Of a DNA stretch of 64,000 nucleotides, positions 33,201 to 36,200 are shown piece by piece. How positions within the stretch are numbered: the first letter of the stretch is position 1; each line of letters starts with the position of its first letter. The stretch is from Pecten maximus (Eukaryota), in the NCBI RefSeq assembly GCF_902652985.1, contig NC_047028.1:5952001-6016000 (forward strand), read 5' to 3'. Position numbers: made by a program.

Positions 33201-36200
33201 GCTTGCATGTATATTTGTTTACACGAAGTAGGTTTAAAAGACTACTGTCTTGTTTGGAGCAGATATAAGAATGTTTTAGCTGCAATTGAAGCATGTTTTA
33301 ATTATTTTACAATGCAATGTACAAGTTTGTTATATTTGGTATTCTCTGGAATAAAACTTAAATGTGTATTATTAGCAAAATAGATTTTATTTACACTGAT
33401 CATGAGCATACAGCATTCTTAATCTATTCTATCAATTTAGATTTTGACACAAGTTAAATTTGCAATGCCATTTGACAGTAAAATTTCATCTGGGAAATTT
33501 TTAGATTATGCTGTATTCTTACATTTACTGATAGGGCATTTAATAGCTATTCAAATAGCTCCTAAATATTCATTTTAACAAAGTATTTATAGTCGAACCT
33601 CACTAAAAATCAGTTAGGTCAGATAGATATCTACATCTCTAAAATTATTTAGCCTTTCAGGATGTTTTGAACTCAGATATGATATTAAGCTGTATGATTT
33701 AATTTTGATGTTGGTTAAAGGGATTTGATGAGGTTTTACTGTATAAACCAGTTCCTATTTGGAGTCTGTAGAAATTATTCCGTTTGATTTACACTTTCCG
33801 AGTACGATAATGATGATATTATGATGAGTGTAAGCATTGACTATAGACACCCTTTCCCTTTGTAGTATGACGATTGGAGCTCTCAGGTCCCCCTGACTGT
33901 AAGTCCCGAATTATCAGCCTTCGCATTCACAGCATTCTCAGGGCGCTCTTCTGCGTTGCATCACCATCCTATACATTTGTCACAGGCTATGGCATACGTC
34001 GACAGTATTAAAAGCCAGAACTGGTCTCACACCGAAAGAAATACTTTACAACACTTTTTGGGATGAAAATTCTGTAAAGGAGAACATGTTCTGTTTCAGC
34101 AAAAAAGAAAAAAAAAAGATAAGATCAAGTATGATTTGGTTGTGACAGATGTATTGGATGACGATACAGCTGCTATGTGTAGTTGTGCCTAGTGATGCCG
34201 GGGTACAGCACTTCTGTTGTAGATCTTCCCGGTAATGTCAGTCCCTCGCCGTTACACTCACAGGTCTACATAGACTCTTTGAAAGGTTTCTCATTGTGTT
34301 CAGAATAAAATATCTTGGGATTAAGGTGCTTTATAAAGCAATCATATCTAAAATGGCTTGATTGGATTGCTATTACATTCATGCTTCAAAAGTGGAAAGC
34401 AATATTGTCATTTTAACTGAATTTAGTATTTTGTCTTTTGGTTCATATATTTTTTTCATTTCAAAACTTTTTGTGATTGTTATTCTCTATAATCACTGAT
34501 AGCTTGTAGCACGCCTTAATAATTTCTTGTAAGGACATTAATTGGCTATAACCATATGAAAATTATGAAATATTATATATCATTGGTAATTTTCCACTGT
34601 AAATTTAATGATGTACATTGTACAACTAAAGTGACCATTGCCTTCAGCTGAGGAAGCCATAGTCATGGTTTCTTAATCAAATCATGCTACCTTATTAAGG
34701 AATAATAAATCTTTAGAAGTTCCTGAGGTAACATCACACTTCCACAGTATCCTCAGTAGAATGCAAAATTCAGATTTATGTATTACCTGTCATCAAAAAA
34801 TCTCTACTCGGTCAATGGAATTATTTTCCCTTAATTAGAAGAGCACAAGTTTAGTTTTAGCTTTTTTCATATCACCCTACTCATAAAAAAATATCATTCA
34901 TACTTCTCAACATTTTTATACTTCTTTCTTCATTTTCACTTCTTTGGATATTTAAAGCTCTATTAATTTTTTCAATCACAAATATTATGACTTTATGAGT
35001 GGAATATAAAAATTTCCAAATTCTTAAAAATGCAATGTTTGATTCATAATATACTTTGGCCCATCAATTTATGTACATTGGCTATTTAAAATAATCCTGA
35101 GCTGAAGTAAACAGATGGAGAACATTTCCCGGTTTACAGTGGCTATATATAGCTATTTATAGGTTGTGAGGTTTAATACTCTTACTGTTGTAAAGCATCT
35201 CTATTTGCATGCATGTATGGCTCTTTTTGATTTATTGCTTCAATCAGGTGTCTGTGTGTACAATTTTAATCAGTCTTTTTAATAAATTATTATGTTTACG
35301 TTCTTGGAAGAAATATCATCCTACAGTTTGTTTAATATGTTAGACACTGGAGTGATATTATTGATATATAAGGCAAAAAGAAATGTTTCTTCAGGGTTCA
35401 TGTACATGTCCAACCCTCCTTTTTACTATACAGGCAGTCCGGGTGACTGAATAGGATGTTTGCATTATGAAATTTTTCACTGACAGATTCAGGATAATGA
35501 AATATTAAATATTTATATGAATATTACTAATATGTTTACAAATTAAAAGGACTTCTGCCCTTCTGATCAGTACTGAAATGGCTGCCTGATCAATGTAGAC
35601 TACAACAGAATGAAAGGAAATTGATTCATTTTGGATATCAATGTATAAATTCTGACAGAATTGGCTATAGCACACTATATCCCAGTGAACAAATATGATG
35701 AAAAAAAAATTCTGGCCTGCTGACTATATATACCCTGTTTTGAAGTTGCAACACAAAACTCTTTTCCAAAATATATTAAGGTAAATATAATTATGTATAT
35801 GGCTAAAATATTTTATATTCTGAAAAGTAAACCAGAAACATGATTTACAGTAGCTATTAGAATTGTTATGATTTGAATTAGCTAAAAACCTTGGTTTGCT
35901 AGACTTGTCACAATAGTGGCCATTTATCACTTTGCTTCGACAATGTAATGACTTGATGAGGCTTTCATTGTATAAAAGCCACCATGCTGAGGTAAGGATA
36001 TTGAGGAAGAGGTGGTATGCTAATATTTAAGGATATTTGGTGCTTTCACATTGAATTCAAACATTCACAAGAACGGTGTCATCTTGACCATATTTCTCGA
36101 ATGCCTACAAAATGAAAATATGTCATCTTTTTGCAATAGAGACCAGTTTCTTACTCTTAACAGAAACTATAAGATACAACATCTTACTCTTAACAGAAAC

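What the first reader, a model, noticed from the sequence alone, without database searches (positions are those of the whole stretch)
33780..33905. Candidate sterically mutually exclusive microexon pair in the FMR1 KH2 variable loop
Seen: the 5.4-kb intron that splits KH2 (after ..SETLREE, before [10 protein letters not shown]) contains two frame-preserving phase-0 candidates. They are 33803-33829 (YDNDDIMMS) and 33866-33898 (YDDWSSQVPLT); both start Tyr-Asp and both end in GTAAG donors. Only 36 nt separate them, a branch-like ATTGAC lies just after the first donor, and read-through hits TAG, so they could hardly be included together. Known: vertebrate FMR1 carries extra, partly alternative exons (11/12) in this same loop, which FXR1/2 and Drosophila Fmr1 lack, and which modulate KH2 RNA binding. 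Inference: an independent mollusc microexon switch acting on the same loop. The first exon has a rare GAG acceptor and is the weaker call.
Basis: partly seen in the sequence, partly recalled or inferred. Interest (0 to 1): 0.7.

Follow-up and report, generated by a model that had tools for sequence, protein, structure and literature searches.

The report
Annotated scallop FMR1 KH2-loop microexon
One of the two proposed tiny exons is a real 33-base exon, already in the public annotation, that lengthens an RNA-gripping loop of the scallop fragile-X protein, while the other has no support, so the proposed either-or switch is unproven.

Summary
The window is the Pecten maximus FMR1/FXR-family gene. 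RefSeq isoform X2 (P0001, 729 aa) maps exactly onto it in 17 coding exons.

**Second candidate, 33866-33898 (YDDWSSQVPLT): real and already annotated.**
- It is coding exon 11 of that isoform.
- Argopecten irradians isoform X2 carries YDDWSHQVPLT at the same site. Mizuhopecten isoform X3 lacks it.
- It lies in the KH2 variable loop: PDB 2qnd positions 115|116, and a low-confidence coil between two strands in an AlphaFold model.

**First candidate, 33803-33829 (YDNDDIMMS): unsupported.**
- None of its 4-residue words occurs in any of the 215 proteins fetched.
- Its acceptor has G at -3, against 0 of 16 real acceptors in this gene. Its GC is 26%, below the intron's 32%.
- It shows no significant similarity to exon 11.
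- Its position 36 nt upstream of a real microexon is mildly unlikely by chance, about 0.02.

The mutually exclusive pair is therefore unproven. Extra residues at this site appear in 17 of 38 named mollusc cluster representatives, so the site varies repeatedly. Isoform lists, RNA-seq and other scallop genomes could not be consulted.

The parts
14209..41729 (+). Coding span of the Pecten maximus FMR1/FXR-family gene: 17 coding exons as in RefSeq isoform X2, stop codon included
   Evidence: All 729 residues of P0001 are placed exactly. Each of the 16 junctions has one GT-AG solution.
31997..32106 (+). Coding exon 10: N-terminal half of KH2, ending ...SETLREE; donor GTGAGT
   Evidence: Aligns to 2qnd_A positions 80-115, E 1.2e-11. 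Junctions.
32107..33865 (+). Intron between exon 10 and the microexon (1759 nt). It contains the unsupported candidate.
33803..33829 (+). No evidence of use: a pseudo-exon, or possibly a regulatory decoy.
   Evidence: GAG acceptor, pyrimidine fraction 0.76, GC 0.26, 5 of 9 matches to the U1-complementary consensus. 0 of 215 proteins carry any of its 4-mers.
33830..33835 (+). Donor-like GTAAGC after the first candidate, 10 nt upstream of the likely branch A of the real microexon
   Evidence: It is one of only 5 GTAAG in the 5435-nt stretch.
33836..33841 (+). ATTGAC, branch-point-like (TTGAC fits YTNAY). The A at 33840 is 25 nt from the acceptor of the microexon.
   Evidence: Read. The branch-point role is inferred from consensus and distance only.
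33848..33865 (+). C/T-rich tract and TAG acceptor of the microexon
   Evidence: Pyrimidine fraction 0.76.
33866..33898 (+). Coding exon 11: 33-nt phase-0 cassette microexon, YDDWSSQVPLT (residues 332-342 of P0001), in the KH2 variable loop
   Evidence: Exact match to P0001. Argopecten has YDDWSHQVPLT and Mizuhopecten X3 has none. Model: coil between strands 316-319 and 344-352, pLDDT below 50 at 326-338.
33899..33904 (+). Donor GTAAGT of the microexon
33899..37541 (+). Intron between the microexon and exon 12 (3643 nt)
37542..37628 (+). Coding exon 12: C-terminal half of KH2, starting [10 protein letters not shown]
   Evidence: Aligns to 2qnd_A positions 116-144, E 9.2e-09. Junctions.

Best explanation
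33866-33898 is a genuine 33-nt, phase-0 cassette microexon of the Pecten maximus FMR1/FXR-family gene. It is already present in RefSeq isoform X2.

When included it inserts 11 residues (YDDWSSQVPLT) between strand beta2 and strand beta' of KH2. This doubles the variable loop that, together with the GXXG loop, grips RNA in KH domains. When skipped, exon 10 joins exon 12 directly and gives the short loop seen in most relatives.

The likely splicing signals are:
- the branch-like TTGAC at 33837-33841;
- the C/T tract at 33848-33862;
- the TAG acceptor;
- the GTAAGT donor.

The first candidate (33803-33829) is most likely not an exon. It is an AT-rich, GAT/ATG-repetitive, stop-free stretch that happens to lie between an AG and a GTAAG just upstream of the real microexon's branch point.

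Shown: the gene model, the exon, its conservation in a second scallop genus, and its place in the loop. Inferred: that it is alternative within P. maximus itself, the branch point, and any effect on RNA binding.
For: **The gene model and the microexon.**
- P0001 (named by its source as an isoform X2 of Pecten maximus) maps residue for residue on the window. 33866-33898 is its 11th coding block.
- P0003 (Argopecten irradians isoform X2) has YDDWSHQVPLT between ...PREE and GQVPF. P0002 (Mizuhopecten yessoensis isoform X3) joins ...LREE directly to GQVPF.
- The two flanking exons align to consecutive positions 80-115 and 116-144 of PDB 2qnd.
- The AlphaFold model of P0001 puts residues 320-343 in a coil between strands 316-319 and 344-352, with pLDDT below 50 at 326-338.
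- Exon 11 has 55% GC against 32% for the surrounding intron.

**Against the first candidate being an exon.**
- 0 of 215 fetched proteins hold any of its 4-mers.
- It has G at -3. The gene's 16 real acceptors have C 14 times, A once, T once and G never.
- Its GC is 26%.
- The best local alignment of its unit to the exon-11 unit covers only the donor: score 15 against 12.35 +/- 2.18 in shuffles, reached by 13.3% of 2000 shuffles.
Against: - The P0001 cluster stands for 8 member sequences, and I could not list them. One of them could carry the first candidate. At 90% clustering an isoform differing by 9 against 11 residues would be hidden inside the cluster.
- The position of the first candidate next to a real microexon has a chance probability of about 0.02.
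- Its pyrimidine fraction (0.76) lies within the range of real acceptors (0.53-0.94). Its donor ranks 18th of 306 intronic GTs, level with exon 11's at 20th.
- It starts with the same two residues as exon 11.
- Skipping of exon 11 within P. maximus itself was not seen directly.
- No RNA-seq and no other scallop genome could be examined.
Confidence: 0.75

Rival explanations
1. Both 33803-33829 and 33866-33898 are used, never together. The 36-nt spacer is too short to be spliced, and the branch point of the second exon lies 10 nt from the donor of the first. A transcript therefore carries one, the other or neither.
For: - The geometry is as described.
- Both exons are phase 0, 3n and stop-free with GTAAG donors. 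They are the only two such distinct exons in 5435 nt.
- A close pair arises in 2% of shuffles.
- Both start Tyr-Asp, with synonymous differences in the two codons.
- The P0001 cluster holds 8 unseen member sequences.
Against: - 0 of 215 proteins carry the first exon.
- It has a GAG acceptor, against 0 of 16 real acceptors with G at -3.
- Its GC (26%) is intron-like.
- The lengths are unequal (27 and 33 nt), and there is no significant similarity between the units. Pairs that arose by exon duplication are usually alike (recalled).
Confidence: 0.12
2. The first candidate is not an exon, but its GTAAGC is a functional decoy 5' splice site. U1 snRNP bound 10 nt from the branch point of the microexon would hinder U2 recruitment and favour skipping of exon 11. 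The element would then tune inclusion.
For: - GTAAGC at 33830-33835 lies directly against the branch-like ATTGAC at 33836-33841.
- Only 5 GTAAG occur in the 5435 nt, and 2 of them are 69 nt apart.
- The two donors share TGA[G/C]TGTAAG.
Against: Nothing here tests binding or effect. 5 GTAAG is close to the 4.3 expected in shuffles, so the motif needs no special explanation. The mechanism is inferred only.
Confidence: 0.08
3. The first acceptor and the second donor are used together. This gives a 96-nt exon (33803-33898) with an in-frame TAG, a 'poison' exon that sends transcripts to decay.
Against: The weak GAG acceptor. No transcript evidence is available. Such products would not appear in protein databases, so the protein searches say nothing on this.
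Confidence: 0.04

Closest known systems
Mammalian FMR1 exon 12 (with exon 11): the alternatively spliced part of the KH2 variable loop
   Same: Same protein family, same domain and same loop (between beta2 and beta'). Both are frame-preserving cassettes that lengthen the loop. In the passages read, exon 12 (21 aa) is skipped in most brain transcripts and lowers or destabilises kissing-complex RNA binding in vitro (PMC2722981; PMC3591412).
   Different: - The scallop exon is 11 aa against 45 + 21 aa.
- Sequence likeness to the mammalian exons was not tested, because the only solved relative found (2qnd) lacks the loop.
- The paper says the mammalian exons are absent from chicken, Xenopus, zebrafish, FXR1/2 and fly Fmr1. 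Common descent is therefore unlikely (inference).
Inserts at the same junction in other mollusc FMR1/FXR proteins
   Same: The extra residues sit between ...RE[EQ] and GQVPF in 17 of 38 named mollusc representatives. Mercenaria mercenaria X2 has an 11-residue insert that also starts with Tyr (YGDQMSPTSKS). Two species show forms with and without: Pomacea (P0005 and P0007) and Mya (P0133 and P0147).
   Different: - Apart from Argopecten, the sequences are not alike. Mercenaria shares 3 of 11 residues with the scallop exon.
- The oyster VMASL looks like an extension of the upstream exon to a second donor. The read-through fragment P0125 continues VMASL-VR... (inference from the protein alone).
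- Many gastropod and cephalopod inserts end in Q. That would fit an upstream alternative acceptor whose last codon is the constitutive CAG (inference).
Sterically enforced mutually exclusive exons (alpha-tropomyosin exons 2/3 type); recalled, no call
   Same: A donor too close to the branch point of the next exon would forbid joining the two. Here the distance is 10 nt, in a 36-nt spacer.
   Different: In the known case both exons are demonstrably used. Here use of the first is not shown.
Neural microexon programme (SRRM4 / eMIC-dependent); recalled, no call
   Same: Short (33 nt), frame-preserving, placed in a surface loop of a neuronal RNA-binding protein.
   Different: There is no TGC in the 66 nt upstream of the acceptor, whereas UGC near the acceptor is the recalled hallmark. 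Tissue pattern is unknown.

Membership tests
FMR1/FXR protein family (host gene) | Tudor/Agenet N-terminus, KH0, two KH domains, FXR C-terminal core | tested here: met
   On P0001: KH_9 2.4e-34, Tudor_FRX1 7.9e-25, KH_1 8.3e-16 (2 stretches), FXMRP1_C_core 1.7e-09, Agenet 1.9e-08. P0001 maps exactly on the window.
KH2 variable-loop insertion | The insertion point lies between beta2 and beta' of KH2 | tested here: met
   The flanking exons align to 2qnd_A 80-115 and 116-144. Model: strands 316-319 and 344-352, insert at 332-342 in coil.
Cassette microexon | Short (51 nt or less), length a multiple of 3, AG and GT at its borders | tested here: met
   33 nt, phase 0, TAG acceptor, GTAAGT donor.
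Cassette microexon | Present in mature transcripts or annotated products | tested here: met
   Present in P0001 (Pecten maximus X2) and P0003 (Argopecten irradians X2).
Cassette microexon | Skipped in other transcripts of the same species | tested here: inconclusive
   The skipped form was seen only in Mizuhopecten X3. The 8 members of the Pecten cluster could not be listed.
Mutually exclusive exon pair (steric type) | Two neighbouring exons separated by an intron too short to splice, or a donor too close to the branch point | tested here: met
   36-nt spacer. The donor at 33830 is 10 nt from the branch-like A at 33840. The shortest real intron of the gene is 308 nt.
Mutually exclusive exon pair (steric type) | Both exons are used in transcripts | tested here: not met
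   The first exon is absent from all 215 fetched proteins. The test is weak, because isoforms are merged at 90% identity.
Mutually exclusive exon pair (duplication type) | The two exons are similar in length and sequence | tested here: not met
   27 against 33 nt. The best local alignment is the donor only, p = 0.13. Only the first two residues are shared.
SRRM4/eMIC-type neural microexon | UGC motif close upstream of the acceptor (recalled) | tested here: not met
   No TGC in 33800-33865.
SRRM4/eMIC-type neural microexon | Neural-specific inclusion | not testable with these tools
   No expression data are on hand.
Mammalian FMR1 exons 11/12 | Sequence homology of the inserted residues | not tested
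   No comparator with the loop came back. 2qnd lacks it. By the paper's account the exons are restricted to mammals.

The most novel reading that the evidence does not exclude
The first candidate is used after all, as the partner of exon 11 in a pair that cannot be joined (36-nt spacer, donor 10 nt from the next branch point). Scallop FMRP would then have three KH2-loop states: short, +9 acidic/hydrophobic residues, and +11 aromatic residues. This would sit inside a wider pattern in which the phase-0 intron in the KH2 variable loop has been exonised again and again in molluscs, other protostomes and mammals.
Probability: 0.12. Interest if true: 0.5.

Novelty: already known. Interest (0 to 1): 0.27.

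Why it matters
The KH2 variable loop flanks the RNA-binding cleft of FMRP. In mammals the meaning of its alternative exon 12 is still unsettled (passages in PMC3591412).

Scallops, and by the annotated proteins many other molluscs, vary the same loop through small alternative inserts. This means the loop is a recurrent target of splicing-driven variation, not a mammalian oddity. That contrasts with the statement in PMC2722981 that FXR1/2 and fly Fmr1 lack such exons.

No paper describing this for molluscs turned up in four full-text searches. For the scan itself the result is sobering. The real exon is already in RefSeq, and the novel part of the claim, the exclusive pair, rests on a candidate with no support.

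Tried and rejected
- **Position weight matrices.** Matrices trained on this gene's own 15 other splice sites ranked the real exon-11 acceptor 141st of 258 intronic AGs and the first candidate's 121st. The model does not discriminate, so I dropped it for simple measures.
- **Tandem duplication of the exon.** No register between 54 and 72 nt gives more than 24 of 63 identities. The best local alignment is not significant. The repeat finder shows only short two-copy families.
- **A third AGTAYGAY at 34128**. It has an A-rich upstream and no pyrimidine tract, so I rejected it as an exon.
- **Structured RNA.** 0 Rfam matches at E <= 1 in 32107-37541.
- **Genes on either strand.** Only 4 short ORFs of 31-45 aa overlap 33600-34100.
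- **A 36-aa exon query** was below the size limit. I re-sent it as a contiguous 120-base stretch.
- **Bird 'partial' proteins** have inserts of 36-83 residues starting VST.... I set them aside as probable intron read-through in homology-based models and did not count them.
- **Not used.** Genome contigs holds only bacteria and archaea, and the phage, plasmid and E. coli collections hold no mollusc DNA.
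Full report
**What the window is**

The window has no N, and it is not a human contig. A 56-aa exon (30612-30779) found, at 100% identity, a protein that its source names 'fragile X mental retardation syndrome-related protein 1-like isoform X2 [Pecten maximus]' (P0001, 729 aa). That search scored 1067 proteins at E <= 0.001 among 1077 candidates and listed the best 120.

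All 729 residues of P0001 are encoded exactly on the + strand in 17 blocks. Each of the 16 junctions has a single GT-AG solution. The coding exons are:

| Exon | Coordinates | Exon | Coordinates |
|---|---|---|---|
| 1 | 14209-14259 | 10 | 31997-32106 |
| 2 | 22063-22115 | 11 | 33866-33898 |
| 3 | 24511-24607 | 12 | 37542-37628 |
| 4 | 27895-28052 | 13 | 37979-38082 |
| 5 | 28678-28743 | 14 | 39278-39396 |
| 6 | 29344-29437 | 15 | 39747-39917 |
| 7 | 30008-30124 | 16 | 40226-40327 |
| 8 | 30612-30779 | 17 | 41149-41729 |
| 9 | 31106-31184 | | |

Pfam finds KH_9 (FMRP KH0), Tudor_FRX1, KH_1, FXMRP1_C_core and Agenet on P0001.

**How the searches were made**

The spliced model was searched exon by exon:
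- exon 8;
- exon 10 as a contiguous 120-base stretch;
- exon 12 as a contiguous 120-base stretch;
- exons 10 and 12 against the PDB.

The step of searching with joined exons was left out. The two microexons are too short (9 and 11 aa) to be searched alone. I looked for them inside the fetched proteins instead.

**The observation**

- the two flanking exons and their phase;
- the 5435-nt distance between them;
- the two candidates and their translations;
- the GAG and TAG acceptors;
- the GTAAGC and GTAAGT donors;
- the 36-nt spacer and its terminal in-frame TAG;
- the ATTGAC at 33836-33841.

**The second candidate is a real, already annotated exon**

- 33866-33898 is coding exon 11 of P0001, which reads ...[28 protein letters not shown].
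- Argopecten irradians isoform X2 (P0003) reads ...SETPREE-YDDWSHQVPLT-GQVPF..., 10 of 11 residues the same.
- Mizuhopecten yessoensis isoform X3 (P0002) joins ...SETLREE directly to GQVPF.
- Among the 207 proteins held, only these two carry the insert. The 8 added show none in the stretches printed. 7 of those 8 had the downstream anchor and P0215 had not.
- The exon stands out by composition: GC 0.55 against 0.319 for the 5435-nt stretch. It opens a GC-richer island that runs to about 34020.

**Where it sits in the protein**

Exon 10 aligns to positions 80-115, and exon 12 to positions 116-144, of PDB 2qnd_A, 'FMR1 protein' (E 1.2e-11 and 9.2e-09). The junction is therefore a point where the crystallised chain is continuous.

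The AlphaFold2 model of P0001 was built from a 72-sequence alignment. Its mean pLDDT is 61.4, and the folded N-terminal 390 residues are mostly above 85. It gives the following for KH2:

| Element | Residues |
|---|---|
| Strand | 282-290 |
| Helix | 291-298 |
| Helix | 300-312 |
| Strand | 316-319 |
| Coil (pLDDT below 50 at 326-338) | 320-343 |
| Strand | 344-352 |
| Helix | 353-390 |

The microexon residues 332-342 are thus in the variable loop. [quoted passage not shown] The mammalian FMRP KH2 loop is encoded by exons 11 and 12, and exon 12 is alternative (PMC2722981; PMC3591412).

**The first candidate**

*For it:*
- It is the only other stop-free, 3n, <=51-nt AG...GTAAG interval in the 5435 nt, apart from a 12-nt sub-version of exon 11. 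Three were observed in all. 300 shuffles give a mean of 1.81 (sd 1.65). With a pyrimidine fraction of 0.7 or more, 2 were observed against 0.23 in shuffles.
- A pair 60 nt or less apart arose in 2% of shuffles.
- The rate over all 25,364 intron nt of the gene is 27 candidates in three frames, or 0.35 per frame per kb. That gives about 0.02 for a 60-nt neighbourhood.
- Its pyrimidine fraction (0.76) lies within the real range (0.53-0.94). Its donor matches the U1-complementary consensus at 5 of 9 positions, against 6 for exon 11 and 5-9 for the real donors.
- It begins Tyr-Asp like exon 11, with the two codons differing only at synonymous positions.

*Against it:*
- None of its six 4-residue words occurs in any of the 215 fetched proteins.
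- Its acceptor has G at -3. The 16 real acceptors have C 14 times, A once, T once and G never.
- Its GC (0.26) is below that of every coding exon (0.30-0.59) and like the intron's.
- It reads as a degenerate GAT/ATG repeat, which by itself explains the lack of stops in that frame.
- The two units share nothing significant beyond the donor TGA[G/C]TGTAAG: score 15 against 12.35 +/- 2.18, with 13.3% of 2000 shuffles as good.
- AGTAYGAY is not enriched in the window: 9 found, 9.09 expected.

*Limits of the negative result:*
- Proteins are clustered at 90% identity.
- The P0001 cluster stands for 8 member sequences on one contig.
- The tool that lists cluster members was not available.
- An isoform with the 9-residue insert could therefore be hidden.

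**The geometry**

The donor at 33830 is 10 nt from the branch-like A at 33840. The spacer is 36 nt, while the shortest real intron of the gene is 308 nt.

The same ATTGAC is better read as the branch point of the real microexon. It lies 25 nt from the acceptor, and only one AG (33846-33847) lies in between, 6 nt from the A. This reading rests on consensus and distance alone.

**The wider picture**

I checked 44 named mollusc cluster representatives. 38 had both anchors of the loop, and 17 of those 38 carry extra residues exactly at this junction. The other 6 have divergent anchors.

| Species / isoform | Insert |
|---|---|
| Mercenaria mercenaria X2 | YGDQMSPTSKS (11 aa) |
| Tegillarca granosa | 24 residues |
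| Potamilus streckersoni | 10 residues |
| Saccostrea cucullata X1 | VMASL |
| Mya arenaria X2 | VDTS |
| Haliotis rufescens X1 | TFEFQ |
| Lymnaea stagnalis | FFASFQ |
| Pomacea canaliculata X5 | VLFQ |
| Nucella lapillus | LVYPQ |
| Elysia chlorotica | 13 residues |
| Liolophura sinensis | 8 residues |
| Cephalopods | 22 residues |

- Forms with and without the insert exist within Pomacea (P0005, P0007) and within Mya (P0133, P0147).
- A brachiopod (Lingula X1, VTHSLQ) and unnamed arthropod-like sequences also have inserts.
- The inserts are mostly unrelated in sequence.
- Inserts that begin with V fit an extension of the upstream exon, with the constitutive GT read as a codon. The oyster read-through fragment P0125 continues VMASL-VR.
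- Inserts that end in Q fit an upstream alternative acceptor, with the constitutive CAG read as a codon.
- Both of these readings are inferences from protein sequence only.
- The scallop exon is a free-standing cassette, 1759 nt from exon 10 and 3643 nt from exon 12.
- Mercenaria's insert shares its length, its first residue and 3 of 11 positions with the scallop exon. This is a weak hint of common origin that I did not test further.

**How it most likely works**

Inclusion of the 33-nt exon doubles the KH2 variable loop from 11 to 22 residues between ...VKIE and GQVPF. It adds two aromatic and two acidic residues beside the RNA cleft. Skipping gives the short loop.

By analogy with mammalian exon 12, inclusion lowered or destabilised kissing-complex RNA binding in vitro (passages). 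Inclusion of the scallop exon is therefore expected to modulate, not abolish, RNA binding. That step is inference and nothing here tests it.

There is no TGC within 66 nt upstream of the acceptor. The recalled signature of SRRM4-type neural microexons is therefore absent.

**Literature**

Four full-text searches found no paper on KH2-loop microexons of mollusc or other invertebrate FMR1 genes:
- FMR1 / KH2 / variable loop / exon 12;
- microexon / Fmr1 / KH2;
- FMRP / mollusc / KH2 / isoform;
- FMR1 / FXR1 / invertebrate / alternative splicing / KH2 / evolution.

In one search none of the 12 listed papers contained 'mollusc'. I read only passages of PMC2722981 and PMC3591412. For the other papers I saw the search listing only. 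Supplements were not consulted.

**What stayed unchecked**

- RNA-seq junctions.
- The isoform list of the Pecten gene.
- The orthologous introns of other scallops.

**Verdict**

- The real feature is a conserved scallop microexon in the KH2 variable loop that public annotation already holds.
- The exclusive pair is unproven. I put it at about 0.12.

Noticed in passing
window 29381-29713: A tandem repeat of period 78 with 4.3 copies starts inside coding exon 6 (29344-29437). It repeats the exon's 3' end together with its GTAAGT donor into intron 6. This creates extra donor-bearing copies, seen as 48-nt AG...GTAAG candidates at 29546-29593 and 29621-29668.
   Followed up: partly
window 33957-33984 and 34141-34168: A 28-nt inverted repeat, 82% complementary, with arms 156 nt apart. 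It lies in the GC-richer stretch that begins at the microexon (about 50% GC at 33840-34020 and 34140-34290, against 25-30% around). It could be a small foldback element or a pre-mRNA stem downstream of the microexon.
   Followed up: no
window 40327-40337: Nine bases after the donor of exon 16 there is a second GT. Its use would add Gly-Ile-His, which Mizuhopecten isoform X3 has (...QDQGIHDERRP) and Pecten isoform X2 lacks. It is a likely alternative donor.
   Followed up: partly
window 33801, 33864, 34128: Three of the four + strand copies of AGTAYGAY in the 64-kb window lie within 335 nt. The third has an A-rich upstream and no pyrimidine tract. The clustering is unexplained.
   Followed up: partly
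window 16835-18745, 24962-26293, 38508-39263, 40492-40775, 49901-51194, 58116-59255: Long minisatellites lie in and around the gene: 29 nt x 65, 43 nt x 31, 37 nt x 21, 30 nt x 9.6, 43 nt x 30 and 45 nt x 25. The 37-nt array in intron 13 carries a GTAAG in each unit and so yields six spurious microexon candidates.
   Followed up: no
proteins P0166-P0197 (birds): Many 'partial' bird FXR1/FMR1 models carry inserts of 36-83 residues starting VST... at the same KH2 junction. They look like intron read-through in homology-based annotation. Two fish-type FXR proteins (P0202, P0205) have a 16-residue insert starting VGRQ.
   Followed up: no
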